Shown here: positions 1 to 23,548 of the stretch, in pieces
Numbering within the stretch: the stretch's first letter is position 1
Layout: every line of letters starts with the position of its first letter
NCBI GenBank assembly: GCA_903813345.2
Contig: CAIIXF020000001.1
Span: 1,364,001 to 1,428,000 of the forward strand
Direction: 5' to 3'
Length of the DNA stretch: 64,000 bases
Source of the DNA: Owenia fusiformis
Taxonomy: Eukaryota
Translations under genes and position numbers: made by a program
Notes under the pieces: model-generated
The model's database searches: none
What the model was told of the DNA's origin: nothing
The model's input: the letters and a program-made list of their open reading frames with translations, nothing else

Positions 1-667
1 CTTATCTGTCTGAAAACACAACATTCTCCGATAATGCCGTTTAATGTCATGATAAGACTGGCATAATCGCATATATCATTGCCATTGCTGTAAAAACATA
101 GCCTCTTATTTCACAGCATTGATATATCGGAGAAAGGCACTAGACATTTCATGGAAAAAGATCGAAAACCGAAAATCGGGATCAGAATCCTTGACGCTGT
201 TTGCATAGTTGGTGTAAATGAGACTCCCAAGTGTGAAAATTGTTTTTGTGATGTCGACATGAAAATATTAAAAGGTTTTTAAAAAGCTGGTGCCGAGTAA
301 ACCGATCAGTCTGTTAATTTGCATTGATTGGCTGACGTACACCAACTGCTGGGGTAAAGTTTGCAAACTGTCTGTGGTTATAAACAAAAGTTTACGTTCA
401 ATATATTCGAATATAAGTTAACGTTGAACCGATCATTTTCCTAAGAAAATTCTAGAATTGAAAAATATGAATACTTTACTTATCAATTAATTAATTAATT
501 GATAATAAGTGTACTTCAAAGTGCTATCGTTATTTGTGTAAATATGGGTACTAGTTTGGTTATTCGAAGGATTATCCAGCTTCATTTCACTATAAAGCAG
601 ACAGAGGTTATCCACATGATCAAGGGTCTTAGCACTGATCTTGTCTTCGTTATCTTATCTCTATACT

Positions 668-1423
668 AGGGAGTTTAAGATTAGCGTAAATAACCCATTT
701 ACCTATACCTATACGTAGTTTGTTATTACACTAAGCGGTATTTTACCAAAGTTACAGGGTTTACCATACGTAATTACCTATAAATGGCCGAAGATAGGTA
801 ATTCGAAAACGTATGTTTTTATCCAACAAATTATGTCATTTTTAGATGAAATATCATCCATTAAACTTTAAAATAGTAACAACAAACATTTCTCATTCGA
901 TCTGCATAGAAATTAAGTGGTCGAACACATTCATCGATGCGATAAACGATGCCATGTGATGGTGCATGAAATTGTTGAATTTACACATTCTTCATCAGTT
1001 TTGCTTATTGTAAATGTATGAAATCAGCCATTTCCTCGTGGTTTTAATTGTTTAACTTTACTATTTGGTCACTCTCATTGCTGGATCATGCTAGAAATTT
1101 AACATTTCGCCTTAAGTCACTGCCCCATTAGAGGACCAACAAGCAATACTCCCTCCCAACAACAGAAGCTACACCACATTCTCTCTGAAGTATATAACAG
1201 TTCTTGGAGATGACATGTACTGGTATATGCCATATAAGCCATCGCATGGTTTTCATTCTATAGTTAGGATGTTAATTTTATCATAAATTGTAGCATACGG
1301 TTTTGTAGCCTTTTACGTTAATCTTAAACTCATTTTGCAATACGCATTACCTATACGTATCCGTAACAAACATACGGATAGGGATAGGTACACGTATATT
1401 TTTACGCTAATCTTAACCTCCCT
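668..1423. mobile_element. Non-autonomous DNA transposon (MITE), possibly PIF/Harbinger-related
   Basis: Left end AGGGAGTTTAAGATTAGCGTAAA (668) is an inverted match of TTTACGCTAATCTTAACCTCCCT (ends 1423); flanks ACT/AAT; a second partial right end at ~1311-1331. Confidence 0.65.
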
Positions 1424-2540
1424 AATATGTTTATGTGGTCCTACCAGGCTAAGACCCACGTATGTGCAACAAACGGCACCAACTTCACTGATTTGGACCG
1501 CCGATTTTGGTATTTTATCTTTTTGACCCTACATTTTTAAGCTGATTCACTCTGGCCAGTACTTTCTGAATCAGAACACTCGATCTCGAATCCGGGTTCA
1601 GAATTTAATATTTATAATGGATCTTTGTACATTGTCCTACACACAAGGGATGACCAATCCCTAGTGGCTATATCGTTATTAGATAACCGCTTTAGTTTTA
1701 ATTACTATTTGGGAACCTTACGCAACAAGGAACCTGACACCATGAAACCGACAGTTGGCATATTGTGTTCTCTCTGATGCTACACGATAATCGCCCATGC
1801 AGGATCTAGCTAAGATGCCATCTCGATATAACAAGCTCATACACTAGATCCAGTTGGTGTATTTCAAACAGCTGTACGATCATTAGGATGCAACTTAATA
1901 CAATAGAGATCTGGGAACTGATAACTAAAATTCAAACTTTTCACTTATCGGATTTCATCTATCAAAAGTTACGAGCGAAGTCAAAATCACGTGACTGAAG
2001 TAAGCCAGTCATGTTGTTCCTTTTCAAATTTTGGACCGTTTTTTCTCCGGGAAAATCCTATATCTTAGGCTTGTCTAGTTTCATCTGACATGTTCTCTGA
2101 TGTTCGATCAACACAGGTTTTTATGTTCGCCCCATTATGATTTACTTAACTGAAACCTGCTCCGAAAGTACAACATATGGAATCATTCCGCGTCGATAGC
2201 TTGATATAAACCTTCAAACAGATCAAGATTTGCTTTCATTTTACAAAAATAAACGAAAATCATCGACATATGGCGGAATCGCCAGATGAAATTTCACAAA
2301 TATTCTGACAATAGGTGCGTTCAACTTGAGCGACTGCGTTGTGTTCAAATCTGGTGAAGGTTCCGTGGGATCCCGGCGATCACCCCTGGATATTTAGCGG
2401 TTGGCAGATGGACCTGACGGGAAGAACTGCAGGTGAACGCCGGAAAAAACATTTTGCAGAAAACAATGTGTTGTTCAGTATGTTTATCAATTAGTGTCTC
2501 GATTCAATATGTTGTTATTACCACAAGCGTCTATAAATTG

Positions 2541-2610
2541 ATGTGTCGGCATGGAAACGTACCAGCAGAACTTGTCTTATGTTCTCTCATCTTCCCACTT
2601 GTAGTAAATG
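2541..2610 (+). CDS. Candidate signal-peptide first exon of the iGluR-LBD gene
   Basis: ATG at 2541 encodes MCRHGNVPAELVLCSLIFPLVVN+G, then GTATAA; a phase-1 end fits the phase-1 acceptor at 4075 (G+CA=Ala). Inferred, not proven. Confidence 0.4.
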
Positions 2611-2643
2611 GTATAATTGAATATCGTAGTAGAAGATGGGCTA

Positions 2644-2974
2644 CAGGGGCGGATCTGGGAACCAACAAGGGGGGGGGGCCCAAACTTCTGGTCTGTGGAA
2701 AAAACTTCCGCGCTTGCGCGGAAAAAAATTTTGGGCCCCTAAACCCCAAAAGTGGGCCCAAATTTTGAAATTTTGAGGCCCATTTTCTACAAAATTTGGC
2801 CAAAAATTAAAAAATAAGGCCTTAGAAGGCCCATTTAGGACCAAAAAGGCCTACTTTTTGGGGCCTAAAGGCCTTTTCTGGCTCAAAAATTTTTTTGGGC
2901 ATAATTTTTTTTTCTGGGCCCACCCAAGGGGGGGAGGGCCCGGGCCCCTGGGCCCCCCCCCAGATCCGCCAGTG
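2644..2974. mobile_element. GC-rich-ended MITE with 5-bp target-site duplication
   Basis: Ends CAGGGGCGGATCTGG / CCAGATCCGCCAGTG; GGCTA directly flanks both sides (2639-2643, 2975-2979). Confidence 0.75.
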
Positions 2975-4074
2975 GGCTAGTAAGTAAACAAAGAGGGCTA
3001 GGGTTACACAAATATTATTTGTTTTAGCCAGAAACTTATCTTAACAAAACATTTAATTATGATCTGTTCAGTTGAATGGACTACTACGTGGCAAATATCC
3101 TAAGCGGAATTTTAATTTTTTAAAACAGTTTAATGTTTCCAAAGTTTCGTTCCTCTTTGATTATTGTACAACAAATTTCTATCATCATATCTCCATTCGA
3201 TCGACCAAGGTTTTTGATAATAGTACCTTGTTTAATTCTGTGGTCTTAGTATTGGTTGAAGCATCTGGATCAAAATTGACTATTTACACCAGGCCGAGGA
3301 GAGCACTTTTGTATTATTCTAGAAAGCAGATATTATCATATTGTCTGCACAAGTCTATACGATTGTAGGTGTTATTTCGGGGTGTTTACTATGTATGATA
3401 CGATTGATTCGGCGTGGGAATAGAAGATCCGGGCTTTTCCTTCGTATGATAGTTTAGATGGTGCAAAACACTAGCTACTTGAGGATCCCTGGCTCTTCAA
3501 GTCTCAATGGCTCACTGTTAGACAAATGCACTTCAGTACTCTTGAAGATTGGGCGATGTTGAGTCATAACCGCATCATTGATGCTGCACGTAAATCTTCC
3601 ATCTCTTTTCTCCTTCAGATAGGGTTGCTTTCTTTCATCTTGGATGGTTGGCCCTGGGCTTTTCCACTTCACACCTTGGCTTTTAACATTAACCCTTAAT
3701 TGTGTAGGTTCTTGTGGTACGGTAACTTTTGTACCGAACTCTGCAGTCAAGTATAGTATACTATGCTGAACACATTCTTTATTTTTACTTTTACATGATT
3801 TCAGTAATGAATAAAAGCTTAAAGCTTACAAGAAATTGAGCCTAGAAGCTTGTCTTATCACTGTTCAGTTATCTACCCATTATGTTCTTATGTTTGCTCT
3901 TTATATCTCTTCTACCGACATTACCCTTGTTGTAAATGATGGTGGGACTTTATATGATGTACTATAAAGCGATAGTACGTGCAAACTTGCCAACTGGCCG
4001 GCGTGGAAATGTTTTCGTGTCCATTGTCATAATATCATTTATTGGTTTTAATGGATTATCTCTTATACTTTCAG

Positions 4075-5711
4075 CAATGCCGGACTATAGTGGATCAGTG
4101 ATTGTGACGTCAGTGTTGGAGCCGCCATTTCTCATGAGACGCCAGCAAAGTGATGATAACAGATCTGACAATATACCAGGTGACAAAGACAATAATGCAC
4201 AATACGAGGGATTTATAGTAGATTTGATAAATGCAATTGGACGGTAAGTTTCTAACGAAGCAAAAGAAAAAAGTAAAACAAAGGAGTAACAATATTTGTT
4301 TCATTCGACAAGTAGAAAATGTTTATCTGACTGGTTTTCATTTTTTGTTTTCTGTTTATTCCATATAAATGAGATATAATCTTTACTATATAGTTGCAAA
4401 TAACCTTGGTATGAATATATTCTTGGCGTATGTTTTCGATTTTATGAAACATATCAAATGATATTTAATAAATAAACGCAATACATTTCAGCATAACACA
4501 AACTCGCTTTGTTATAAGAGAGGCCGAGGACAGAAGGCACGGAGCGCGAGATGACGAAGGGCGTTGGAGCGGGATGATCGGTGAGGTCCTTGGGGACAGT
4601 GGCGTGATTCAGGAGGTTCTACGTGGAGTAAGTCAATTCTTAATCAACCGATCAAATTGACCATGTATTTTGGTTTGTTATTCCTGTTTATTGTCAATGT
4701 CCTGTTATTGTTGATGTCATGTTGTTGATATAGATGCCATTGTTTCTAATAAACCATACGTCACAGATTCAAAATATACAAAAAAAATAAATATAGAATT
4801 CAATCCGTGGCACAATGGAGTGAATGCAGTACACGGTTTCAAGTGGATTTCATATTGTTAAAGGCGAAACACTCTCCGAAGCATCTCACAAAAAAGAATA
4901 TAAAGTAAAACATGATAAGATTATTTTGTAAGAAAAACGAATCTAATCCTATATCATGACATTTGCCTTTACCTTTCAGAAAGCAGATATGGCTGCAGGG
5001 CCACTTCTAATTACAAAATACAGAAAAATGGACGTCGACTTTTCCATGCCTTTCATGAGGTTTGGATACAGCATAGTCTTCAAGGATTCCCCACAGTTCA
5101 AGAACATCATTTCTCTCGAAGGCCTGCTTAACATGACAAAGGCTGGTGTGACTGACGATGTCAATAATACGATTCGTGACATTGTATTCAACTATTTGCA
5201 TCACGACACGATTGTTGGAGGTCTCATGGAGCACATGTACAAGAACGAAAAACAAAACGTGCTCAAACAACTTTGGGCATATATGAGCCGCGAGCAAGTA
5301 TTAAAACCGAGTAAAATCTTGGTTGATGATATCAACGTTGCCCTGAAAAGGATAAGGGATGACGGTGTTATTATGATCATGGAAACACCTTCCGCTGAAT
5401 ACATAACCGAAAGTCTGCCGTGTGATTTAAGATCCATTAGAATTACTGATGTTGGTACCAACTGGACTGAATATGCTTATGGCTTTGCAACCGAGCCGTC
5501 TTCTCCGCTACAGATGGATCTGAACCAGGCGTTATCGATGCTGGAGTTCAGTGGAGAACTACAACTTCTGAGAGAACGCTGGTGGCAAACACCTTGTCTC
5601 GACATCACAATAAATTTTGCAGCATCAATTGAGAATGGTGCAATATTTTTCAATAAATTGATACTTCTAAAAACTTTGTTTATATGCATTTTAGTGACGT
5701 ATATCACATAG
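4075..5711 (+). CDS. Ionotropic glutamate receptor-family ligand-binding-domain protein lacking the channel (S1 fused to S2, C-terminal hydrophobic tail)
   Basis: Exons 4075-4243, 4492-4627, 4980-5711 with GT-AG sites and consistent phases. S1 motifs: VTSVLEPPFLM, YEGFIVDL, HGARDDEGRWSGMIGEV, ADMAAGPLLITKYR, VDFSMPFM. S2 motifs: LWAYM, METPSAEY, PCDL, YGFATEPSSPL, GELQLLRERWW..C. Confidence 0.85.
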
Positions 5712-7123
5712 GAGTGACTGTTAACAATAGAATTTATAAGACAAATGTTTATATGTATATATTTGGTCTAATTGTACATACTTTAGAGATATATTTTTGA
5801 GAAACATTAATTTATTGTAAAAACAATACTATGTTCACAATTGAAGGATCCAAATGTGTTAACCATTTTTGCCACATTCAAATGCAAACATGTATGCAAT
5901 ATGCATACACAATTCGTGACCAATCAGAGCTCAGTAAAACCATATGTTATCAGTTTAATGCACGGCTGACTCTTGAACGATTACTAAAAATAATTTGTCA
6001 ATTTTTTTAGCGCACTGGAAAAATGATAACATGGTTGAGTTGACATGCTTAATCTGTTAGTGTTAGAATAACAGGGAAAATGTGCTAGTATTTTTGTTTT
6101 TGTGTCGTATATTTTTGTATAACATATTTTCATCTTTGCCATCATAATAACATTTTAGCTTTTAATCTGTTATTTAGTAGTCAATATTTTATAACTTTCT
6201 CATGATTGCGATTTCATCCTTGGCACATGATATACGAGTTGACTTTTTCCTTGTTTATGCATATTTTGCTATGCGTGGAAAGGATTACACCAAATGAGCC
6301 CGTCACGAATAAGATAGAGCATATTGCACTTGACTTCGTCTCGTGTTAAACTGCATACTGTGTATCTTGTGCATTATTTGACTTATAATTGAAGGACTCG
6401 TATGGGTTAATCCGTCATAATTCTTTCATATTTGGATCCTTTAATTGTTTTCAGGGTCATATTTATTTGAATACGACAGTTAGGCCTAGAGAATTAATTT
6501 TCTGTTTTACGTTTAGGTGATGCAATAACTACGCATTCTCACATTTTCTTTTGTAAATAAGTCAAACTACAAACAGAAATTTAATTCGAAAAGACTAACA
6601 TATAAGAATGAGAGTTGACGAATGACTAGTGAAAGGGTATTGTGCTTCAAATTGTATGCGTGCACGATAATTCAGTTAAACGCATTTTATTATTAGTTGT
6701 AATAGATAAACCATTGACTGTATCGCGGAAATATCTGCATTGACAATAAATCAATTACAAATTAAACATGTATCTTATTAAGTGAAGTATATCAGCATTA
6801 TCGCATAAGCAATTTCCGTTTTCAAGGTGCCTTATTTCCCAGATAAGTAAAATGGAATTACTTCCGATACTTAAACTTTTGAAGGAGAGCGAACCACCAT
6901 AATTACATCATATCATTAGATGATGTCTTACTAAGATTCAAAATGTTACAACTTTAATTTAAGCAGGTTATCCCACATCCTAAAATGTATTTTTAAATAA
7001 CAGTAGGGACAAATTCTATTGAGTCCATTCAATGTAGTTGTTACTATGTTTATATTTTATATAGGGGTTTGCCTCTTTTTTGTTCTTCATATGTTTTCCA
7101 GTAGTCGCGCGGTGGTTTTCTTT

Positions 7124-10100
7124 CTAACTATTGCTAGACACATTATTAGGTGGATCCTTTTGAGTCCTCAACAGCATTGTTATGTAGATTGGAAATCCAA
7201 ACAACGTCAAATTCAACACCAAGATCACTACATTCATCTAGAATGAACACGTCTGAATTAATTTGTAAGACTTTACAAGTCTGATTGTAACATAAATCGG
7301 AGGAAAGAATCTTAACTGTTATAGATGCAAGAAGGATTTCGACAAATGTGATTTAGTGAAAGGAGGAAGTATAGTGTGTGCCACCTATATTCATGCATTT
7401 GTGCAAACAGCATCATCATGGACCAATGCAAGCTGGACTTGAATATAGATGGCAGTTCACTTTCTCTAGTGGGCTATCCTTCACATCTGTACTCCCATTG
7501 GTTTGTATGTAACATAGTTGTATCAAAACTTCCAATATAGTACACAGAACAAATCAATATCACAATTTCTCTTCATACTTATTTACGTAATGCTTTAATA
7601 TGATTAAATTCTTTGCCATCTATTGACAGTACCAATGCCATTCAGACTTGTAACACTACGTATTTACTTACAATTAGGAAGCCATTGTCAAACGATTCGG
7701 CACCAATAAATATAGGTTGTTGCAATGCGCTAGCAGCGGTGCCTGAAGCAAATGTTGCACTCAACAACTTGCCGAAATGCTTCTGTGGAAATCTATGAAA
7801 GAGAACAAACACATACATTGCTGTGATGCAAACTATCTAGTATATTTTGCGTCTCGATAAAAGCCAGGAAGCGCATTGTGTCTACAATACAAAACAATAT
7901 ATGGTCGTGGCCAGAGGGGAAGCAGTTTACAATACCACAGGAAAGCACTTAAGAGTTCATTCATAGTATTTTATTTTAAAAGTAGGGCTAATGGTTTTTC
8001 AATATCTACATATGCATGCAGTTTATGACTACTCACGCTTCTGAGATGAACGCAGCATTGACGGCATAAAGGAATCCCCGTGATGCCACAAACGCAATAT
8101 ATGTAAAGTACTGCGCGTGCAGACTTGGTATCATCGTACTTATGCTGAGGACAAAGTTCATGGCAGCCTCCGTTGTGAATATATAAATGTAGGGTCGCAG
8201 GTATTCTATAATTATTTTATGGCGATAATTCACATTAAACATTCTTGACAAAAACAAATTATCAAGTGTATATCTACGCCTTACGTTACATAGCGCTTCT
8301 ACAATAAACTGATCACAAACAGCATGACAAACTAACTTGTGTGTGGACTGTCGCCATCTTCTCTTTTCCTCCATGTATCGATGAATATACCCGCCAGGGG
8401 GCTGACAAGGAAGCCGCAAGCCAACATCCCAGTGAACACGGACGTGTGCAAGGTAACTGAAATTGAACGACAATTGGTAAATGTACACGAGTATGGTATG
8501 GAAAGTGATTTTAAGGCAACCATTTATCTTTTGATATTAACATTTCATCTGAGTAAGGTCTTCGCGATACTAAACTTATCAATCATAATATCTAAAAAAA
8601 CATGCATTAGGAGCTTACCTCAATATACTTTTCAGAAAGTCGGGCTTGCGCAATTACATAACAAGAGATGTATACCTTCCTTGAAGGCAGAGTGGTGTTG
8701 AGCATATCTTAGTTACCAAAATATTGGACTCAAAGCAATAGATAGAATGCGTATTGGAATATAAGAAGGGACACATTGTTTCATCACCGCTCCCTCTTTC
8801 ACCGCTCCCTCATTCAAAAGTACATTTTGATTTGGAAAAATGAGAAAATGGATGTCCTATTTTTAGAAGTCCGAGATTTTGAAAAACGCGGATCATTTTC
8901 TGAGGGTTGGATTTATATTTCTGTTATCCTGATACTGTACCTTTACTTCGACAACAACATATAATCACAACTAAAAAGATGTATAAGTGGTCCAAATATA
9001 CATGATGACCAATATATCTAAATTATATTTGGAAGATAATAGCATGATTGAAATACCCAGAGAGCTCAAGATGATTTAATGACAAGTTGTATGCTAAAAT
9101 AACTAAAATTATGTGATATATTAGTTAAAACAATTAGCACCTACCTAGTATTTCATCACCTGCGCTCAGGTCGGTAATCCATGAGTTGAAAGAGACGAAG
9201 AAATATTTACTCCTTAAATTCAATACAGAAAACGTCCATGTGTTCCACAGAAATAATGGCGAAAATAGTGTTTTAGTCAGCCCATCTGTTTCAATATAAG
9301 TTGTATTAATTTTGGATGTGGCTTTGTTTGGCAAGCCATTACAATCCGTGATCGTTTCTTTACTATTGATTCTCGGATCTTCAGCCGCCGAGTCTTTTGG
9401 TCGACACTCACTTATCGTTTTTATATCATCGGTTGTTGATTCAGTTGGACGGATATCACGACCACTCAGATTTGGTTCATTTGGTGCTTCAAATGCTTTA
9501 TTCGTGTATCCTTGGAGTTCAACCTTACTCTCACTAGGAGCACAATCCTTTGGTTCAGCTGTCGAATAGTTTTTTCGGACCTCCTCATCATGCGCAACAT
9601 TTGTGGCTATATATCTGACCCCTTTCAATCGTTGTAAGATGATAAATGCCATTGGATATCTTCCATTGTTGTCCGAATGTATATGCTTCCAAGGTTGAAA
9701 TATGAATGTCCCCAGGAGTGTGATTGGCAATAAGACAGACAGGAACACATACAAGGAAGAAGACAAGGGAACCCCATTCTCGTACTGAAGCTTAAATTAT
9801 AACGACAACTAAAGGTATAATTTGTATATTAAACGAAATGGTGTTACAGAATGCATTTTCAATATACGTTTTCAAATATGATACATTTTGTTTTGATACT
9901 TAAAGTATTTATGAAACCACCATCGTATATGATGAGTAATTACTAATTGAATGAAATAAAATTCTTTCAAACCTGTGTTTATATTTTTGAACATTACATT
10001 GAAAGGCCATCTCGTACTTTTACGATGTTGGTTTTAAAGAAATGAAAATGACAAGGATGCCTCAATACCCACCTTAAATACTATGGCGACAGAAGCGCTT

Positions 10101-13093
10101 GCATCATACAGACCATTGTATGCAGCTAGTATGGTTGATCTGCTTCTTGGAAACAACGCGGAAGTCTGTAAACTCGTTACAAATAAAAAGAGTCCACCGT
10201 ATTGTAGAAAGAAGAAAGCTGGGAATAGTAAATAATTTGTCCAAGCATCTGTAATCAAGATGTCAATAATATGTATTTAGAAAAAAATAGGATACCTCAA
10301 ACACGATTTAAGTTTTCCTGTAAAAGACCATTCGATATCAATCTTTATTCGAGGTATTTTTGAGAAAATGGAAATGCACTTGCATTGTCTACAGCTCAGC
10401 GGGCCCATACGAACACGGGGATGGTAAGCAACATATTACATTTGTGATTGCAAAAGACAAGTCAACCATTTTGTTTGCTAAAGTTAAGGAATTTATGCTG
10501 CCCTTGATGCCTCTAGTAAAAGTGGTACTACATAAAGTAGTGCTACAATATATGAGTAGTGCTAAATAAGTACATAGTCTCACTTTATAAGAGTTTCTTA
10601 ACAAAGTGGTTAAATAAAATGAGGCAACACAAGGTAGTTATGCTATACAACGTGGTCCTATTCAAAGTTGTGTCTCTGCTATACAGAGTGGTACGAATTG
10701 AAGTAGTACTGTACACTATGTTATTGAATAAAGTGTTCCTTTACAAGGTGGTACGAAATAAAAAATTGTCCTGGAAAAATTTGTAACTAGATTAACTAGA
10801 AAAACAGCAACTCCAGGGAGTAGCAAATCCAACTGAACAAAGCATATTTTGATATTTAGTGGCCATCTTGAAAATTACTTCTTGAACAGAGCATATGAGC
10901 ATATAAACCAAATTGAACCAAGTCCATCCACTGGTATTTGAGATAAAAAAGATGTGATGTTTCTTTCCAAAAATGGCGGCCATTTTAAAATTTGACCGCC
11001 ATCTTGAAACTTTCTTCTTGAGCAAAGATCTTTTGTCCTTAAGTAGCATATAAAGTTGTAACCAAAACTGTCAACTGGTATTTGAGCTATCAAAGATTTC
11101 ATTTAAAAAGATAAATGACAGCCATTTTGATAAATAGCAGCCATCTTGAAAATATGCAGACCTCCTTCATCTCTAAGCATCAGCATATAAAATCAAATTC
11201 ATCCACTGGTATTTGATTTATCAAAGATAACATTTTTAAATAAAAATGCGGCCATTTTGAAATTCAGCTTTCATCTTTAAAATTACCATATAACCTAGTT
11301 CCTTTGTCTCCTTAGTTTCTTCTTCTTTGTTTCACTTGTTGTTATTCTTTGCCCTCTTTCGGTTCTTCTTTCTTGGTTTTCTTTCTTGCTATACTTTTTC
11401 TCTTTGGTCTTGTTTGGTGTCGGGTCTGCAGACTTGTGACTACACGTCGGTGGGTTGAAGCTTTTTCTACCGGTAACACCCCCTTTCCCTTTTAGACCGG
11501 GTGCTTTTCTGCAAAAGGTCTCTCTGTAAAATGTGGTAGGCGTTTAGTGTTAAAGTGTTCTGACAAGTGTTTCTCATGTAACTTTTTATGCTGAATCCAA
11601 AAAACCATGTTGGCAAGCTGAAATATGATTATTTAACCCTTAAGATACCATGTTAGTCCCCCTACCCCCATAATTCACCCCTATCAGGGGGAAAAAATTC
11701 TTCAACCTAAAATAAATTATAAATAAATTAAGGGTTAAATAATCATATTTCAACTTGCCAACATGGTTTTTTGGATTCAGCATAAAAAGTTACATAAGAA
11801 ACACTTGTCAGAACACTTTTAACACTAAACGCCTACCACATTTCCTCTAGATGAAAATGCACCTTGTCTATTTGTCTTTATCGATGTTTGTTTTTGTTGC
11901 TGTTTTTCTTATATAGTTTACCCTCATTTTGGAGACTGATATCTAAATTTTGAATTAAGGGCCATTTTGGACGACTTCTCCATATCCCTACGAACTTCGT
12001 TCGGTGGAATAATAAACTATAGTGGTGCTATTCACATTTGTACTAAATACCGTAGTGCCATAAAGTTACTTATAATTATAAAATGATGCTATGCAACTTA
12101 GCACTAAATAAAACTGTACTATTCAAAATGGTAACAATTATAAATAGTACTTACCTTGGTTTGAGAAGGCAATTGCTAGTAAAGCGCAGGCGTACATCGA
12201 CCTACATAGTGTGAATAAATGTGTATTTCAATTTTGCATCTTCTTTGCTAAGAGCTATTACTATGAACAAGCAAGTTTACATTACTCTTTTCAAGACTAG
12301 GACCGAGACGTCTTGAGAAACTGTGGATTTAAAGGACAATCTTAAGACGCCTCGACTCTTTAACGTTTTACATAAGAGGTCTTAAGAGTGTAGTGAAAAT
12401 CAAGCTTATATTCTGATTGGAGTTTTCAACGGACAAAAAGACAATGAAGAAGACAATGCAAGGATACTTGCCTGAAAATGCAAGGAAATACATGCCTCCC
12501 TACTTAATATTGAGACAATAGGCCATGTAGCCTGGTACATAACATTTTTCAAACCCGTAATTATAAATATGAACATGCGACTTGATTTTTACTCAATTTG
12601 CTTCGCCATTTTCATAACCAAACGAGCTTTATCATTTCAATATTGATTATTTTCATTGTTTGAGAAGGTGATTGTTATAAGCAACTCACAAAGACAAGAT
12701 ACGACATACCATCGTACCAAACCTATCGTAAATGTAGCCATTAATAATGGATAGAATGCCCGTGAGCACAGTTGTTGTAGTAAATACCAAACTGAACATG
12801 TCGTTCCTTTCTCTGCAATCAATGACTGCGTTATTTTCAACATCGCTTGCATTGACTCCAATTGACACATTATTATCAAACGATGTTACATCAGTGCGTG
12901 TGTCTGTTAACGGGCCTTCATCATATGTAGCATTGCCTCTTGTTTTCATGTACTTCGTTAAGCAGATGTCGGCGAATATCCCATCGTCTTTAAAAACATA
13001 GATCCAAGAAGACCATCCAAATGGAATACCACAAAACAAGCCTATTTCTATTCCAGTCCATATCAATCTGGCAACGTTCATGTAATTCAACAT
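7124..13093 (-). CDS. SLC43-family MFS transporter (SLC43A3/LAT3-like), copy A
   Basis: Exons 13093-12690, 12201-12155, 10248-10073, 9790-9145, 8456-8337, 8205-8037, 7792-7672, 7237-7124 (TAG); motifs GIPFGWSSWIYVFK..C, GYIYDRFG, YNGLYDASASV, SPLFLW, AFPQKHFG. Confidence 0.88.
10794..11290 (+). repeat. Interspersed repeat with AAAATGGCGGCCATTTT-type subrepeats in an SLC43 copy A intron
   Basis: Begins AACTAGAAAAACAGC; repeated GGCCATTTT/GCCATCTTGAAA and CCACTGGTATTTGA units. Confidence 0.5.
11493..11870. mobile_element. Palindromic MITE
   Basis: ~120-bp near-perfect inverted arms (11528-11642 vs 11728-11843) and outer ends TAGACCGGGTGC / GCACCTTGTCTA. Confidence 0.75.
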
Positions 13094-13579
13094 TTTTTGC
13101 TAATGTCCTTGCAAATTCACAAACTTGAAAGAACTATAAAAATCACTGCGATTAGCAGACGTTGATACAACATATGTAGTAATTGTTTGTGTCAATCTCC
13201 TTAAAGATGCAGTGACTCCAAGGTTTTTCTCTGAGACAATGCAATAGGTGATGTCCCATTATAATTTCTCATACAATATCTTACATATCTTGAGACCAAC
13301 CCTTGGGTAAAGTATTGCCTAGTATATATTTATTTTCAAATTTCCGACCGTCATTTCTGAGTACAAGCATACAATTACTACAGTCACCGTAGGACTCGGG
13401 ATCTAACAATTGCAAAAATATATATGTTAATGTGTATTCTTTGTATTGGACTCCTATCAAACACTGCCTCTTTAACGAGCAATTTTTCAGTTGAAGCAAG
13501 CTTTCACGAATTCAACTATCAGCGACTGGTGACGATTTGATTGCTTTTTTATGGCCGACTCATTTAAATGAGGCAAGTA

Positions 13580-14955: not shown

Positions 14956-17900
14956 CTAACTATTGCTAGACACATTATTAGGTGGATCCTTTTGAGTCTT
15001 CAACTGCCTGGTAATGTAGATTGGGAATCCAAACAACGTCAAATTCAACGCCAAGAGGACTCCATTCATCTAGGTACAGAAGGTATATAGTATTAATTCA
15101 AACATTTAAATAAAACTTGAAATTAATCATCGTTAGGTCTGTTCCCGTTGTGATTATTCTGTGAGGCCTGAACTAAAAAATACAAGACTGGAAACATTTT
15201 AACATGAAATCATGTAAATATCTTTGCCGTTATTTAGATGACAATGTGGTTTTGATAAATGTTATTTTGTAATTGTAAAGGGGTTTACGTGTACTTTAAA
15301 GTATCTCGACAAACGTAAATTTAAAAGGTCTATTGATGGATGTCTCAGTAACGACTTTCTTAATATGAAAGTCCGCCCGGATACTACGTTTTACTTACTA
15401 TTAGGAAGCCATTGTCAAACGATTCGGCACCAATAAATATAGGTTGTTGCAATGCGCTAGCAAAGGTGCCTGATGCAAACGTCGCACTCAACAACTTGCC
15501 GAAATGCTTCTGTGGAAATCTGTTGAAGAAAACAAACACATACATTGCTGTGATGCAAACTATCTAGTATATTTTGCGTCTCGATAAGGGCCAATAAGCG
15601 AATTGTGTCTACTTACAAAATATATGAGAAACAGTTTACAATACCACATAACAGGGAAAGCATTTATGAGTATATTCATAACATATTAAAAGTAGGCATA
15701 TATGTACATATTTATACAACTTTTGACAAAGTGATAGCCACAAAATCTAAACAAATTTGCAAATATTTCACTTTGGGGGCTAAGGGACATATTTTGGAGG
15801 TCAAATTGAGAAGATTTTGAGATATAAATACTGTTTCCATGGTAACCATATAAGTTAGAGATTGGACATTTCTGGCACTGACTAACCATGGTATGCCTCC
15901 GATCGCCTACTATAAAACTATGAATGTATGACATGCATTAGTATTCGTTTTATCAGGTGGTATTAAAGTACCCCCAAGGTTTTCTTGGGGTGGGGTATGA
16001 ATTGGCCCGAGGGCCGTCTGCCACCCCTACATGAAGTCCGACTACCCAGAAAGTGCCCAGCATAACCATACAGACTGTTTGAAATATGCTGGAATGTGTG
16101 ACCTTCCATGAAAAGAAGAAGTTGCAATTATCAGAGTAGTCCATAGACTAGCAACGGATTTTTCAATATGTACATACATTGTATGTGCCGTTTTAATTTA
16201 TAACTACTCACGCTTCTGAGATGAACGCAGCATTGACAGCATAAAGGAATCCCCTAGATGTTACAAACGCAATATATGTAAAGTACTGCGCGTTCAGACT
16301 TGGTATCATCGAACTTACGTTGAAGACAGCGTTCAAGGCAAACTCCGTTGTGAATATATAAATGTAGGGTCGTAGGTGTTCTACAATTTCATGGGAAAAT
16401 TTAATTAAAAGTTTTTGTCGAAACCTAAGACAAATAAAATATAAATTATAGACAACCTGTATATCTGTATCGGATGTAATATAAAATATCATAAAATCCC
16501 TTCTCTTGAGAAGAATAACAGAATAACAAACTAACTTGTGTGTGGACTGCCCCGATCTTCTCTTTTCCTCCATGTATCGATGAATATACCTGCCAGGGGG
16601 CTGACAAGGAAGCCGAAAGCCAACATTCCAGTGAACACGGACGTGTGCAAGGTGACTGAAATTGAACGGATCTTTGTGGACTATTTTAGATTCTAAGGCG
16701 TCTTTCAAATGAACAAATAAAAAATTGACAAATGATTTTAGACAGTCGTACCTTTGACCATGAGTGTTTTCGTATCATTTCCGCCCCATTTAGAAAGTAC
16801 CTCGCAAAGTGCAGAAGAAACGTATGATTTTGTAAAAATGAGAAACTAGAAAAAACTAAATGTCGATATGTTAGATGATATGTATTAGTTAAAATAAAAC
16901 TTCTACCCTCCTACCTAGTTTTCTGTCACCTGCACTCAGGTCGGTAATCCACGAGTTGAACGAGACGAAAAAGTATTGATTCCTCAAATTCAGGAAAGAA
17001 AATGTCCATATATTCCACAGAAATAATGGTGAAAACAGAATTTTAGTAAGCCTATCTGTTTCAATATCAGATGTATTATTTTTGAGTGTATCTTTATTTT
17101 GTAAACTGCTACAGTCCTTGGTCGTTTCTTGACTACTGGCTGTTGAATCTTTGTGCGCAAAGTCTTTTGGTCGACACCCACTGATCGTTTTAATTTCATC
17201 CGTTTTTGAATCAGTTTGAATGTTGCCATGACCACTCAGATTTGTTTTATTTGGCGATTCAAATACTTCGTTCGTGTACCCTTGGAGTTCACCCCGACTC
17301 TGCTTACTAGGCGTAATATCCATAGAAACATGTCGTACGGCTATTGAATATTTTCTTCTCATCCGTTCGTCGTTCTCTATATTTGTGGCTATATATTTGG
17401 CGACTTTCAATCGTTGGAAGATGATAAATGCCATTGGATGTCTTCCATTGTTGTCCGAATGTATGTGCTTCCAAGGTTGAAATATGAATGTCCCAAGGAG
17501 TGTGATTGGCAAGAAGACAGACAGGAACACATACAAGGAAGAAGACAAGGGAATCCCATTCTCGTATTGAAGCTGAAAGTATTACAACGACTGTAAATGT
17601 GTAAAAATCGTGTCGATCGATCTATCGGTCTGTCTGTTGGTTTGTCGGTCTGTGCAATAACGTTTAAATGTAAATGCTTGTTTTTGAATTAGTCAATTAA
17701 ATAACAACTACATCTTACAGCCCAAACAAATGTCCTTATTGTTGCTTTTAGTATATAAACGGGAAGATGCTACCCATTGTATTAAGTATCAGGCCCCATG
17801 TAAAGTTTGGAAATAAGTTTTATCATTCATTTACTATTTTTAAAAAATAATTTGGGAGATTTTCGGAGAGTTGGTTTTAATCACTAAAATTACAAAATGT

Positions 17901-20900: not shown

Positions 20901-21663
20901 AAATAGCACTGAATTTTGCATTTGAGATATTGAAGGCAAAAAATACTTTTTTAAACTTGCTTGAAATTGACAGATTTTCTTCTAAATCATCCCAGAAGTT
21001 CAGACCTGACCTTAGATTTGATACTTGACCTTTGGTTGACCTTCGGTGATCAAAAGGTAAGAAAATTGATTTTTCAAAGTGAACAAATCATTTTTAAATA
21101 TTATCTACATATCCCGGGAGATCTGATATTTGACTTTCCTTAAAATTGTGAAACGTGCCTTCGAGGGCCTACTTAAGATTGCTTGTAATCTTGATTTCTA
21201 ATAATTTTCATCGTTTAAGAATGTTATTGTAAATGGCAACTTACAAAGACAAGAGACGACATACCAGCGTACCAAACCTATCGTAAATGTAGCCGTTAAT
21301 AATGGATAGAATGCCCGTGAGCACAGATGTTGTAGTAAATACCAAACTTAACATGTCGTTCCTTCCTCTGCATTCAATGGCTGCGTTCTTTTCAAAATTG
21401 CTTGCATTGACTCCAGTTGGTACGTCATCATAATACGTTGTAGTAGCATTGGTGAATGTGTCTGTTGACGGGGTTGCTCCATTATATGTAGCATTATCTA
21501 TTAATTCTACGTTATGGTCAAGGCAGATGTCAGCAAATATTCCATTATCTTTAAAAACATAGATCCAAGAAGACCATCCATATGAAATACCACAAAACAA
21601 TCCTATTTCTATCCCAGTCCATATCAATCTGGCCACATTCATGCTGTTTGACTTGCATTTCAT
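14956..21663 (-). CDS. SLC43-family MFS transporter (SLC43A3/LAT3-like), copy B
   Basis: Exons 21663-21245, 19284-19238, 18796-18621, 17572-16915, 16655-16536, 16380-16212, 15519-15399, 15069-14956 (TAG); same exon structure as, and high similarity to, copy A. Confidence 0.88.
17791..18209. mobile_element. MITE (possibly Kolobok-like)
   Basis: AGGCCCCATGTAAAGTTT vs AAACTGTATATGGGGCCT; right flank TTAA. Confidence 0.5.
18397..18575. repeat. Short palindromic repeat family, copy 1 (degenerate)
   Basis: GGTCACATTTGCT..ATCGGCCGGC ... ATCGGAGCAAATGTG; matches copies at 40785 and 61297. Confidence 0.6.
19905..20505 (-). mobile_element. Helentron-associated (HINE/DINE-like) repeat
   Basis: Reverse-complement homologue of 30607-31042, including the GTCC microsatellite and GTACCCACGGTACTATTT end; internal ~200-bp duplication. 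Confidence 0.6.
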
Positions 21664-23548
21664 TTTGGTTCAAGTGAAAACTAATTTTTCTTGGTTATGC
21701 TACCCGGATTAGAAAAACATACAAGTTGTATAAAATATCATCGAATTCAATGTGCTGTCATTAATAGGTTAGTATGCGTGATGTCCTTTTGAATTTTAAA
21801 GCTTGAAAGAACTATTTAAGTGCGACTCAATAGGGCTGTGTGTCATTCACCTTAAAACAAGCAACACAAGGACGACAATACATTATGATATTGAAAAATA
21901 AATTATCTATATCTTAGATGGAGAACATTTTTACACGTGTTTTCAGATTATTTATTATTTATTTTTATGAAAAAAATAAGAACAAAAATGGAGTTCTAGG
22001 CTGGGCCAAGTTGAACTTCTCATGAAGACAGAAGAGTAAGTTCGAAAATGTTTAAGAAGGCGAGCCAAGATCAAACACAAAACTTGATTTTTTATTCAAT
22101 CAATTACAATCGGGTTTTAAAGTAATATAGATAACGAAGGAATATACGTTAAACTGTAAGGAAATAATACAAATTCAACTGCGAAATTGAATTTTTCTAA
22201 TAGACAACGTCATCTACATCCGGGTCATCGTCAAATTTGAGAAATGCCAATATGAAGATAAAATCGAAACATATCATATATCTTAAAGGCGAAACGACCA
22301 AAACGTTTGTCATGTTGAAATCTATTCACCCCTCGGGCTTAGGATTGGATGCTTGCGATGAAAAATTAACGGCATCCATCACGTAAAACGAACAAGAACG
22401 AAATTAAAATACATTATATTTAATAAGCAGCTAGAATACAAAACGTCGCGAACTTTTCAAACATTTGCAAACAAAGGCTGCTTTTGTGCTAAAGAAGCTA
22501 TGACTGGTTTATACTAGTTCACAAGTGCATCTTTAAGAAATATTAAAAAGGTTCTAGCCTGCAAACTGTAACCACCTTCCATTAACTTCGTCACAGATGC
22601 CGACCGCCAAAAGCCAACCTCCGAACATAGTCCACAAAAAAGTTGTAGACAATAATTTCTAGTTGTTCGTATTTCCATTGCAGGTTATGTAAATAAAATT
22701 CAAACATAGTGAGGCCTTTAACAGGGTTTACAGTCAATGACCGGTCGCACGGGTCGGTGCACGTGAAGCCACTGTTTTTGGTAGCATCACAAACATGATA
22801 AACAGGATGTATATGGGCAAATACGGTAATTGATATTTTCAAACATAGTCAAATTCTGTTGTTCTACCAACGTCCGCGCCATGTGTGTTGATATCAACGA
22901 CATTTAATGTGTGCTGTTTTGATGTCAACACAAACATAAAACAGAATACGTTTTATTAAGTCCATATGACGTCGCAGAAAATCCTAGGAGCCTTTCGACT
23001 TGCGACAATGCGATAACTTGGTGATATAAAAAGTGGTGACATAGAAAAAGATCAAAGTCATGTTTTCTTTCTGTGGTACATCTTTTTGTTTAATCATAAA
23101 CAGTCATATGAATGAGTCTGCGCAAATCGGACACACCCCTTAGTTTTTCAAGTGAAACTCGACATAAATTCTAGCTGAAGTGTCATGTATTCAGATTTTA
23201 TACAAGTCAATGTTAATTTGTGGTTTAAAATACTGAAGGCATTCCAAGCTATGCAGACGTAGCCTGTGGGAAATATTTGATGCGGCAGGAATGAGCGTTT
23301 GGTGCGGAGGCAACGGTCATTTTTAATCTAAATTTGGGATATTTCTGAAACTAAGCCGTTTGGGACAAATATACTCATACCTGTGTAATTGACACCTGAT
23401 ATCGATAAAATTGTGAAAATAGTAGTGTAATTCATTCTATAGCGACGCAGTATGCGCTAAACCTTTATTTTTTGGAATTGTCGTTTTTAAACAGCGTCTA
23501 ACAAAACAAAATATCATTATATCATCAAACGATAAAGTTGTTTTGTTT

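What the first reader, a model, noticed from the sequence alone, without database searches (positions are those of the whole stretch)
4075..5711. Channel-less iGluR: a naturally fused S1S2 ligand-binding protein
Seen: the end of S1 (VDFSMPFMRFGYSIVFK, to 5084) is followed after only DSPQFKNI by the start of S2 (ISLEGLLNMTK), all inside the single open exon 4980-5711, so a missed exon cannot explain the gap. Established: in iGluRs and insect IRs the M1, pore loop and M3 (well over 100 residues, including SYTANLAAF in iGluRs) lie here; joining S1 to S2 with a short linker is how soluble S1S2 constructs are engineered. The S2 disulfide cysteines (PCDL, WWQTPC) and four N-glycosylation sequons (NRS, NMT, NNT, NWT) are present and the frame is intact. 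Inference: a ~370-aa extracellular amino-acid-binding protein derived from an iGluR, analogous to molluscan AChBP for Cys-loop receptors; it could act as a ligand buffer, decoy, scavenger or co-receptor. I cannot confirm it is undescribed.
Basis: partly seen in the sequence, partly recalled or inferred. Interest (0 to 1): 0.9.

Follow-up and report, generated by a model that had tools for sequence, protein, structure and literature searches.

The report
Channel-less glutamate-receptor binding domain gene
An annelid worm gene encodes only the ligand-binding clamshell of a glutamate-gated ion channel, with no pore and a short greasy tail that probably tethers it to the cell surface; similar unnamed genes occur in other invertebrates, so it looks like an overlooked class of non-channel receptor relatives.

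Summary
Window exons 4075-4243, 4492-4627 and 4980-5711 encode residues 24-368 of a 368-aa protein annotated only as 'unnamed protein product' of Owenia fusiformis. Exon 4 runs from the end of S1 through an 8-residue linker into S2. It aligns in one stretch with engineered S1S2 crystal constructs. Pfam finds Lig_chan-Glu_bd and SBP_bac_3 but no Lig_chan. A spliced 1188-nt contig from an independent run confirms both junctions and the uninterrupted S1-S2 join. Four of its five differences from the window are synonymous.

Two corrections. The signal peptide lies in an exon upstream of the window. The last 23 residues are hydrophobic with nothing after them, so the protein is probably tethered (GPI or single helix), not free like AChBP.

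It is not unique. About 33 of the 149 best relatives share the pore-less layout: annelids, a mite, a fly, a tardigrade and unnamed roughly 1-2.5 kb (one 3.8 kb) contigs. Published iGluR surveys filter such sequences out.

Ligand and function are untested, and four of seven canonical contact residues are replaced. Verdict: a real, expressed new variant of a known kind. Interest 0.7.

The parts
4075..4243 (+). Exon 2 of the annotated 4-exon gene. It encodes residues 24-80, the start of S1 (strand 31-36, the YEGF motif). Sequon NRS at residue 52.
   Evidence: Sequence and translation. The spliced contig of run X1 starts matching at 4073 and leaves at 4242/4243. Weak PF10613 hit on this piece alone.
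4244..4491 (+). Intron (GT..AG), 248 nt.
   Evidence: Joint 4242->4491 'skips 248, GT..AG (cut +1)' in the X1 contig.
4492..4627 (+). Exon 3. It encodes residues 80-125, the middle of S1. The Tyr-lid position reads His. It carries a private 10-residue insertion before the exon end.
   Evidence: PF10613 positions 45-77. The insertion is visible in alignment A1.
4628..4979 (+). Intron (GT..AG), 352 nt.
   Evidence: Joint 4627->4980 'skips 352, GT..AG' in the X1 contig.
4980..5084 (+). First part of exon 4: the end of S1 (residues 126-160), with invariant Pro133, Arg140, Phe146 and Phe150.
5085..5108 (+). Natural S1-S2 linker DSPQFKNI (residues 161-168), standing where M1, the pore loop and M3 lie in channel subunits.
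   Evidence: Single-stretch alignments across the join with engineered S1S2 constructs. Modelled at pLDDT about 82. Covered without gaps by the X1 contig.
5109..5597 (+). S2 (residues 169-331). It includes a private insertion of about 18 residues (about 178-195), Pro272-Cys273 (5418-5423), Cys331 (5595-5597) and sequons NMT176, NNT187 and NWT286.
5598..5639 (+). Short spacer after the last Cys (residues 332-345), containing small residues (AAS, NGA) that could serve as a GPI attachment site.
   Evidence: Sequence. Compared with the tails of relatives. The site assignment is by eye only.
5640..5708 (+). C-terminal hydrophobic tail (residues 346-368). No residues follow it. It is a membrane tether: a GPI signal or a single helix, in the position of M4.
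   Evidence: Hydropathy. Predicted helix 339-367. Of 42 pore-less relatives tabulated, 17 (this protein included) end the same way.
5709..5739 (+). Stop codon TAG (5709-5711) and the start of the 3' UTR, as far as the transcript contig reaches.

Best explanation
This is a real, transcribed Owenia fusiformis gene. Its product is the ligand-binding clamshell (S1+S2) of an ionotropic glutamate receptor and nothing else. It has no amino-terminal domain, M1, pore loop or M3.

The order of parts is: signal peptide (encoded in an exon upstream of the window), S1, an 8-residue natural linker, S2 with its disulfide pair, then a terminal hydrophobic segment. That segment most likely tethers the domain to the outer face of the plasma membrane, either as a GPI-attachment signal or as a bare single helix left over from M4.

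It cannot conduct ions. The most likely mode of action is as a surface-tethered binding module. The cleft keeps the Arg that holds a ligand carboxylate and the acidic residue that holds an amino group. It has hydrophobic replacements elsewhere. So it may bind a small carboxylate-bearing compound other than glutamate.

Binding would then either lower the local free ligand concentration (buffer or decoy) or be passed to a transmembrane partner (co-receptor). The second mode resembles bacterial solute-binding proteins and GPI-anchored co-receptors such as GFR-alpha.

Shown: architecture, fold, splicing, transcription, and relatives of the same layout. Inferred: tethering mode, ligand class, decoy or co-receptor role.
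For: Architecture:
- Searches give a one-stretch alignment across the join with engineered S1S2 constructs.
- One search finds PF10613 at 8e-27 and PF00497 at 3.4e-13, with no PF00060.

Fold:
- The AlphaFold2 model has pLDDT 76.4 and pTM 0.73.
- Its best PDB matches are S1S2 crystal structures: 4mf3 at E 4e-25 with TM 0.86 by target, and 4u4s with TM 0.87.

Transcription and splicing:
- The X1 contig of 1188 nt shows both GT..AG joints plus 121 nt of an upstream exon.

Constraint:
- The ORF is intact over 4 exons.
- 4 of 5 differences between the window and the X1 contig are synonymous: 4172, 4579, 5186 and 5207 are synonymous, and 5110 changes Ile169 to Asn.
- P(>=4 of 5) is 0.009-0.02 under neutrality.
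- Three of the five differences recur in the one read pair of run X17 that lies on exon 4.
- The protein keeps 12 of 13 positions invariant in the 16 other tail-bearing relatives, including Pro133, Arg140 and Cys273/Cys331.

Not a recent accident:
- The best relative of any layout is only 34% identical.
- Owenia has two further pore-less paralogues at 30% and 26% identity, one of them on another chromosome.

Recurrence:
- 33 natural clusters among the 149 best non-self hits give one uninterrupted S1S2 match with no hydrophobic segment in between.
- Named ones are Helobdella x2, Capitella, Halotydeus, Bradysia, Paramacrobiotus and Owenia x2.
- Many unnamed ones are whole ORFs on contigs of about 0.9-2.5 kb, one of 3.8 kb.
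- All 17 members of alignment A1 hit PF10613 and PF00497, and none hits PF00060.

Tether:
- Among 42 pore-less proteins tabulated, 17 including this one have a strongly hydrophobic 12-mer in the last 30 residues with at most 8 residues after it.
- The tail is usually preceded by runs of Ser/Ala/Gly.
Against: - No ligand, localisation or partner has been tested.
- By the alignment (GluA2 residue roles recalled), the Tyr lid, the S1 Thr and the S2 Ser-Thr pair are replaced by His, Leu, Leu and Met. Classical amino-acid binding is therefore doubtful, and the cleft could be dead.
- This is the most divergent member of its group. Its end branch is 1.15 to 1.74 substitutions per column.
- It keeps only 46 of 70 columns that are >=70% conserved in the others, the lowest of 17 (the others keep 77-90%).
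- It has two private insertions, both modelled at pLDDT below 50.
- Expression looks low. The contig depth is 4.9. One read pair was found in about 6% of run X17, and none in the sampled 6-12% of X18 and X19.
- The polymorphism test rests on five sites from one low-depth contig.
- The tail is 23 residues long with two Lys, longer than in most relatives. No GPI predictor could be run.
- Placement in one clade with the other tail-bearing proteins is allowed but not shown.
Confidence: 0.6

Rival explanations
1. Expressed relic. The gene lost its pore by an old internal deletion and is now a weakly transcribed, functionless remnant drifting towards pseudogene status. The intact frame is luck or recent relaxation.
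For: - Longest branch in both trees.
- Lowest retention of moderately conserved columns, 46 of 70.
- Four of seven canonical ligand contacts replaced.
- Two private low-confidence insertions.
- Low read support in three RNA runs.
Against: - No frameshift or stop in 368 codons over four exons, with canonical splice sites that are used.
- 4 of 5 polymorphic differences are synonymous, P 0.009-0.02.
- 12 of 13 family-invariant residues are kept, including both cysteines.
- At 34% identity to its nearest relative, a neutral sequence would not have kept an open frame and a confidently modelled clamshell.
- Two deeply diverged pore-less paralogues are also intact in the same genome.
Confidence: 0.2
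2. Ligand-independent surface module. The clamshell is kept as a protein-protein interaction or adhesion scaffold. It might pair with the binding domains of channel subunits or with matrix or cell-surface partners, and the cleft has no small-molecule ligand.
For: - Replacement of the Tyr lid, the S1 Thr and the S2 Ser-Thr by His, Leu, Leu and Met.
- Related members of the subgroup also carry hydrophobic residues at the S2 pair, and three replace the acidic residue by Pro (alignment).
- A membrane tether and four sequons fit a surface glycoprotein.
Against: - Arg140, which holds the ligand carboxylate in iGluRs (role recalled), is invariant in all 17 aligned members. Pro133 is invariant too. 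That is hard to explain without a cleft ligand.
- The acidic residue is kept in this protein.
- No partner has been identified or tested.
Confidence: 0.12
3. Artefact. The missing pore reflects an assembly deletion, a skipped exon in the gene model, or a chimeric annotation of a normal iGluR gene.
For: Gene models of about 300 aa in other genomes could in principle be mispredictions. One hit (P0008, 296 aa) keeps fragments of M1 and M3 and looks like a partial model.
Against: - The S1-S2 join lies inside one exon.
- An independent run with its own SNPs covers 4980-5739 without gaps and shows both introns removed.
- The stop codon follows the tail within the same exon.
- No other iGluR-like sequence lies anywhere in the 64-kb window.
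- Many relatives are uninterrupted ORFs on short unnamed contigs.
Confidence: 0.02

Closest known systems
Engineered soluble S1S2 ligand-binding cores of GluA2, GluK1, GluK2 and others (laboratory constructs; PDB 2wky, 4mf3, 4u4s)
   Same: The same two segments are joined by a short linker at the same place. One-stretch sequence alignment. Model TM 0.82-0.87 by target. The disulfide pair is kept.
   Different: This one is natural, with introns, a signal peptide and a hydrophobic C-terminal tail. Its linker is 8 residues instead of the construct's short artificial join. It has two extra loops. It is 25-29% identical. Four of seven canonical ligand contacts differ.
Channel-forming iGluRs without an amino-terminal domain (protostome IRs and IR-like or AKDF-type subunits; closest hit P0006 of the nemertean Lineus longissimus)
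   Same: Best sequence relatives (34% identity, E 1.4e-34). Same S1 and S2, and no amino-terminal domain.
   Different: They carry M1, pore, M3 and M4 (hydrophobic segments listed). This protein has none between S1 and S2, so it cannot form a channel.
Kainate-binding proteins of frog, chick and goldfish (recalled, not examined here)
   Same: Short iGluR relatives lacking the amino-terminal domain, known mainly as binding proteins.
   Different: As recalled, they keep all membrane segments. This protein does not.
Molluscan acetylcholine-binding protein (AChBP) (recalled)
   Same: Works-like analogy: the extracellular ligand-binding part of a ligand-gated channel family encoded as a separate protein without a pore.
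   Different: A different fold and family. AChBP is secreted and soluble. This protein ends in a hydrophobic tether. Some tail-less relatives (mite, fly, tardigrade) would be the closer analogues.
Bacterial periplasmic solute-binding proteins, family 3 (PF00497), and GPI-anchored ligand-binding co-receptors such as GFR-alpha (the latter recalled)
   Same: A stand-alone clamshell that could hand a bound ligand or a conformational signal to a membrane partner. PF00497 hit at 3.4e-13.
   Different: A eukaryotic gene with spliceosomal introns. S1 matches the iGluR-specific model PF10613 at 8e-27, and its nearest relatives are animal iGluRs. It is therefore a secondary reduction of a channel subunit, not a bacterial-type protein. 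No partner is known.

Membership tests
Ionotropic glutamate receptor superfamily (channel subunit) | S1 segment of the ligand-binding domain (Pfam PF10613) | tested here: met
   PF10613 at 8e-27, 94 bits (cut-off 30), residues 32-161.
Ionotropic glutamate receptor superfamily (channel subunit) | S2 segment completing the clamshell, with the conserved disulfide pair | tested here: met
   Aligned to S2 of GluK1 and GluA constructs. Cys273 and Cys331 are invariant in A1. Fold match TM 0.82-0.87.
Ionotropic glutamate receptor superfamily (channel subunit) | M1, pore loop and M3 (with the SYTANLAAF motif) between S1 and S2 | tested here: not met
   Only 8 residues lie between S1 and S2, inside one exon. 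No PF00060 hit. No hydrophobic segment before residue 345. It is therefore a derivative of the family, not a channel subunit.
Ionotropic glutamate receptor superfamily (channel subunit) | M4 helix after S2 followed by a cytoplasmic tail | tested here: inconclusive
   A 23-residue hydrophobic segment stands where M4 would be, but the protein ends with it and has no cytoplasmic tail. Homology to M4 was not tested.
Protostome variant ionotropic receptors (IRs) | Subunit lacking the amino-terminal domain, with a divergent binding pocket and an intact ion channel domain | tested here: not met
   There is no amino-terminal domain and the pocket is divergent, but the channel domain is absent.
Tail-bearing pore-less S1S2 proteins (alignment A1; an unnamed group defined here) | Signal peptide, contiguous S1-S2, Cys pair, terminal hydrophobic tail with no cytoplasmic residues | tested here: met
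   All 17 members hit PF10613 and PF00497, and none hits PF00060.
Tail-bearing pore-less S1S2 proteins (alignment A1; an unnamed group defined here) | Common descent (one clade) | tested here: inconclusive
   The LG+G4 quick tree puts the protein in a 17-row group with SH-aLRT 88. The mixture-model tree leaves it unresolved on a long branch. By the AU test, a tree holding the 17 rows together has lnL 17.8 higher than the free quick tree, p 0.70. The group was named only after the first tree was seen.
GPI-anchored surface proteins | N-terminal signal peptide plus a C-terminal hydrophobic signal preceded by small residues at the attachment site | tested here: inconclusive
   Signal-like N-terminus in the annotated protein. 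Terminal hydrophobic tail with 4 residues after its most hydrophobic 12-mer. AAS and NGA lie upstream, judged by eye.
GPI-anchored surface proteins | Positive call by a dedicated GPI predictor, or release by PI-PLC | not testable with these tools
   No GPI predictor or bench assay was available.
AChBP-like soluble decoys | Secreted, freely soluble binding domain | tested here: not met
   As encoded, the protein ends in a hydrophobic tail. Later release from the membrane was not tested.
Bacterial solute-binding protein family 3 | PF00497 fold | tested here: met
   PF00497 at 3.4e-13.
Bacterial solute-binding protein family 3 | Prokaryotic gene working with an ABC transporter or chemoreceptor | tested here: not met
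   An animal gene with GT..AG introns removed in RNA. Its nearest relatives are animal iGluRs.

The most novel reading that the evidence does not exclude
Protostome animals carry an old, so far unnamed class of pore-less iGluR derivatives. Some are GPI- or helix-tethered (annelids and unnamed marine sequences). Others are freely secreted (mite, fly, tardigrade). In this reading they have returned to the life of a stand-alone solute-binding protein and act as non-ionotropic chemical sensors, co-receptors or transmitter buffers. The Owenia gene in this window would be a fast-evolving member tuned to a ligand other than glutamate. The class escaped notice because iGluR surveys discard sequences without membrane segments.
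Probability: 0.35. Interest if true: 0.85.

Novelty: new variant of a known kind. Interest (0 to 1): 0.7.

Why it matters
iGluRs are textbook fusions of a solute-binding clamshell with a potassium-channel-like pore. A natural, expressed reversal of that fusion, present in several phyla, would show that the binding domain has a life of its own in animals.

It would add a missing counterpart to AChBP for the glutamate-receptor family. It would also give structural biologists naturally stable S1S2 domains with new pockets.

It points to non-ionotropic roles in chemosensation or synaptic physiology of marine invertebrates: ligand buffering, or a tethered co-receptor.

It also exposes a blind spot. 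The three surveys read here require membrane segments, the SYTANLAAF motif or PF00060, so such genes are removed before analysis.

Tried and rejected
Tools that gave nothing:
- The genome search 'own': no whole genome is held for this window.
- The supplements of the papers read were not opened. Sequence lists there (for example the PF10613-only sets of PMC7067487) may hold further pore-less proteins.

Word-index searches:
- With exon 4 alone they found only the protein itself ('near') and one tick GluK2-like protein ('longer').
- This reflects the method's reach. The exhaustive search found 1246 relatives.

Exon 1:
- Motif and 4-mer scans of all six frames of the window found nothing.
- It lies upstream of position 1.
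- The in-frame ORF 3936-4074, which would give an alternative signal-like start, is not used by the X1 contig. That contig enters at 4073 from elsewhere.

Sequencing runs:
- No RNA holder is listed.
- Of the 19 rows, four were laid (X1, X17, X18, X19).
- X1 proved to be spliced RNA.
- X17 gave one read pair on exon 4. X18 and X19 gave none in the 6-12% of each run that was read. That says little about expression level.

Trees:
- The LG+G4 quick tree groups the protein with the annelid tail-bearing proteins, with a warning that long branches meet.
- The mixture-model tree does not reproduce this.
- I therefore do not claim the clade, only that it is not rejected.
- Rows left out of the trees: P0007, P0008, P0010, P0030, P0069, P0079, P0136 and P0153 (tandem, chimeric, partial or engineered).
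- P0006 was entered as two halves.
- The second tree used 62 of 143 rows.

dN/dS: no relative is close enough. The best is 34% identical.

Not run:
- Complex prediction. No Owenia channel subunit was in hand, and a homodimer pass would mainly echo solved S1S2 dimers.
- Any GPI predictor (none available).

ESM Atlas: nearest clusters are iGluR or IR families. A 261-aa 'kainate-like' chordate cluster probably holds laboratory constructs. It added nothing further.

Literature:
- Searches (open-access PMC and bioRxiv only) found no paper describing natural pore-less S1S2 proteins as a class.
- One passage in PMC11939437 lists a mantis-shrimp 'IR' with only Lig_chan-Glu_bd plus a PBP-type-2 domain, without comment.
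- PMC6275457 and PMC2924276 were checked by passages only and held nothing relevant.

Bacterial origin by transfer was considered and rejected, because of the introns, the iGluR-specific S1 model and the animal nearest relatives.
Full report
**What is in the sequence**

The + strand between 4075 and 5711 holds three exons with canonical splice sites: 4075-4243, 4492-4627 and 4980-5711 (stop TAG at 5709-5711). Their joined translation is residues 24-368 of a 368-aa protein. The word-index search returned that protein at 100% identity as 'unnamed protein product [Owenia fusiformis]', on a 62-Mb contig. The window is therefore annelid DNA.

The first 23-24 residues of the annotated protein look like a signal peptide. 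Six-frame scans did not find them anywhere in the window, so exon 1 lies upstream of position 1.

**The observation**

Exon 4 alone encodes the end of S1 (to 5084), the eight residues DSPQFKNI (5085-5108) and then S2, all in one open frame.

- Against PDB sequences, this exon aligns in a single stretch (1-203) with residues 81-252 of engineered GluK1 S1S2 (2wky, E 8e-16). The 60 best hits shown are iGluR ligand-binding cores or full-length receptors.
- Against an engineered GluA-type S1S2 construct that turned up among the hits (P0030), the whole protein is 29% identical (E 1e-36). Its linker lies opposite the artificial join.
- Pfam gives PF10613 (8e-27, residues 32-161) and PF00497 (3.4e-13), with no PF00060 at E <= 0.001.
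- The only strongly hydrophobic 19-residue window starts at residue 345.
- Both Cys motifs and exactly four sequons are present.
- No other iGluR-like sequence lies in the 64 kb.

**Is it real and expressed?**

Four runs were laid on 1-10000. Run X1 holds a 1188-nt contig (depth 4.9) with these features:

- It matches 4073-4242, 4491-4627 and 4980-5739.
- It joins them at GT..AG boundaries.
- It has 121 further nucleotides at its 5' end that match nothing in 1-10000, which fits the upstream exon.
- It crosses the S1-S2 join without gaps, which excludes an assembly deletion or a skipped exon.

The contig differs from the window at five coding positions. Four are synonymous and one changes Ile169 to Asn. 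With 21-27% of random changes expected to be synonymous, four or more of five has P 0.009-0.02. This is a small sample from a low-depth contig. However, three of the five differences recur in the single read pair of run X17 that lies on exon 4.

The three raw RNA runs were read to only 6-12%. They gave one pair (X17) or none (X18, X19), so expression in those samples is at most low.

**Fold**

An AlphaFold2 model was built with an alignment of 17 relatives. It has mean pLDDT 76.4 and pTM 0.73. The linker region is modelled at about 82. Confidence is low only in loops 56-60, 117-123, 182-188, 196-206 and 335-341.

Foldseek against the PDB returns S1S2 crystal structures first: GluK1 4mf3 at E 4e-25 with TM 0.86 by target, and GluA2 4u4s with TM 0.87.

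After the last Cys come 14 residues containing small residues (AAS, NGA). Then come 23 hydrophobic residues that end the protein. The model makes them a helix.

There is no cytoplasmic part. As encoded, the domain is tethered to the membrane. The tether is either a GPI signal (the pattern of signal peptide, small residues and a terminal hydrophobic stretch; my reading by eye, with no predictor available) or a bare helix in the place of M4. It is not a free protein like AChBP.

**Relatives**

The exhaustive HMMER search found 1246 relatives at E <= 1e-3. The best is only 34% identical: P0006, from the nemertean Lineus longissimus, which carries membrane segments.

I built a profile of the pore-less layout and ran it on the 150 listed proteins. 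The results were:

- 35 non-self proteins give one uninterrupted S1S2 match (one of them, P0127, is split by a private insertion) with no hydrophobic segment at the join.
- One of these is a laboratory construct (P0030), and one keeps scraps of M1 and M3 and looks like a partial model (P0008).
- The remaining 33 include named proteins: two more Owenia proteins (329 aa on the same chromosome, 312 aa on another), two Helobdella robusta proteins, one from Capitella teleta, one from the mite Halotydeus destructor, one from the fly Bradysia coprophila and one from the tardigrade Paramacrobiotus metropolitanus.
- The rest are unnamed ORFs on Logan, JGI or marine-catalogue contigs of about 0.9-2.5 kb (one of 3.8 kb). 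That is too short for the layout to be a gene-model error.
- A profile search of the larger database added a few more pore-less proteins of the same domain content.

All 17 members of alignment A1 hit PF10613 and PF00497, and none hits PF00060. Of 42 pore-less proteins tabulated, 17 end in a hydrophobic tail with at most 8 residues after its core, usually preceded by runs of Ser/Ala/Gly. The others stop soon after the Cys and would be secreted.

**Phylogeny**

On a quick LG+G4 tree of 143 rows, the pore-less label is strongly clustered:

- It needs 10 changes, against 30.6 for shuffled labels (0 of 500 shuffles as low).
- Well-supported branches still force at least 4 changes, so pore loss probably happened more than once.
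- There the window's protein sits with the tail-bearing annelid proteins (SH-aLRT 88), with a long-branch warning.

A mixture-model tree of 62 rows leaves it unresolved on an end branch of 1.74. In an AU test, the tree holding the 17 tail-bearing rows together has a log-likelihood 17.8 higher than the free quick tree, p 0.70. One origin for this group is therefore allowed but not shown, and I named the group after seeing the first tree.

**Constraint and decay**

The protein keeps 12 of 13 positions that are invariant in the other 16 members, and 29 of 35 that are >=85% conserved. It keeps only 46 of 70 at >=70%, the lowest of the group. It also has two private insertions.

It is therefore the most derived member, but its core is intact. 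Three intact paralogues at 26-30% identity in one genome argue for long-term retention.

**Pocket**

I used the alignment to the GluA construct and the recalled roles of GluA2 residues.

- Kept: the Pro of S1, the Arg that holds the ligand carboxylate, and the acidic residue that holds the amino group. The Pro and the Arg are invariant in all 17 aligned proteins.
- Replaced: the Tyr lid, the S1 Thr and the S2 Ser-Thr pair, by His, Leu, Leu and Met.

The pattern of a kept Arg with a remodelled, more hydrophobic remainder is what, as I recall, many acid-sensing insect IRs show. It suggests a carboxylate-bearing ligand other than glutamate. Nothing here tests binding.

**Mechanism**

- Shown: a pore-less, signal-peptide-bearing S1S2 clamshell with a terminal hydrophobic tether, transcribed and spliced.
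- Inferred: it sits on the outer cell surface, binds a small ligand, and either lowers the local ligand concentration or signals through a membrane partner.
- Rivals: an expressed relic, a ligand-free scaffold, and an artefact. The last is effectively excluded.

**Comparison with the literature**

Eight full-text searches of open-access papers and preprints found no description of natural pore-less S1S2 proteins as a class. Subscription journals are not covered by these searches.

Passages read in three surveys show why such proteins would be missed:

- One drops sequences with fewer than four SYTANLAAF residues (PMC6307864).
- One drops those with fewer than two predicted membrane helices (PMC12226733).
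- One requires both PF00060 and PF10613 (PMC7067487).

A mantis-shrimp catalogue lists one 'IR' with only the glutamate-binding and PBP-type-2 domains, without comment (PMC11939437, passages).

**Verdict**

The architectural interpretation is supported, and the functional analogy only partly.

The gene is already annotated but unnamed. The layout is a new variant of a known kind and belongs to a wider, apparently unrecognised set of protostome genes.

Interest is 0.7. It is surprising to a specialist and directly testable, but the ligand, the tether and the role are all still inference.

Noticed in passing
window 3936-4074 (+): The frame of exon 2 stays open for 46 codons upstream of the acceptor. 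It begins with Met-Met and contains a hydrophobic, signal-peptide-like stretch. The X1 transcript contig does not use it; it enters at 4073 from an exon outside the window.
   Followed up: partly
window 669-1670 and 2339-3006: These stretches have very high, two-stranded read depth in all four runs, with many mismatches, loose ends piling up at 2642-2678 and small internal skips. They look like multi-copy repeats or mobile-element fragments that are transcribed somewhere in the genome.
   Followed up: no
window 7237-7672: One X1 contig (depth 5.6) joins 7237 to 7672 with CT..AC ends, which is a GT..AG intron on the minus strand. This suggests a spliced minus-strand transcript just downstream of the gene.
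   Followed up: no
window 8033-9796 / 16208-17581 and 12686-13099 / 21241-21669 (-): Two sets of clearly paralogous long ORFs about 8 kb apart indicate a tandemly duplicated multi-exon gene on the minus strand. The two pieces scanned (9137-9796 and 12689-13099) have no Pfam hit.
   Followed up: partly
window 34475-36293 (-): A gene with ankyrin repeats and a SOCS box (Ank 9e-39, SOCS_box 2.4e-8 on 34478-35578). A further long ORF lies at 35700-36293 on the same strand and was not scanned.
   Followed up: partly
window 41080-41679 (-): An exon-sized ORF of the enoyl-CoA hydratase/isomerase family (ECH_1, 3.2e-27).
   Followed up: partly
window 49752-53471 (-): A LINE-like retrotransposon. A 542-aa endonuclease ORF (Exo_endo_phos, 6e-8) is directly followed by a 696-aa reverse-transcriptase ORF (RVT_1, 8e-37), with a single stop between them.
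   Followed up: partly
window about 43617-43843 (+) and 48010-48236 (-): Nearly identical translated stretches occur on opposite strands about 4 kb apart, which suggests an inverted duplication.
   Followed up: no
proteins P0018, P0041, P0043 (relatives, not in the window): Some relatives of 326-397 aa keep only two hydrophobic segments between S1 and S2 and lack M4. They may be intermediate stages of pore reduction.
   Followed up: no
protein P0126 (Owenia fusiformis, another chromosome): The third Owenia pore-less paralogue has histidine-rich stretches at both ends and no hydrophobic tail. This hints at metal binding or a different localisation.
   Followed up: no
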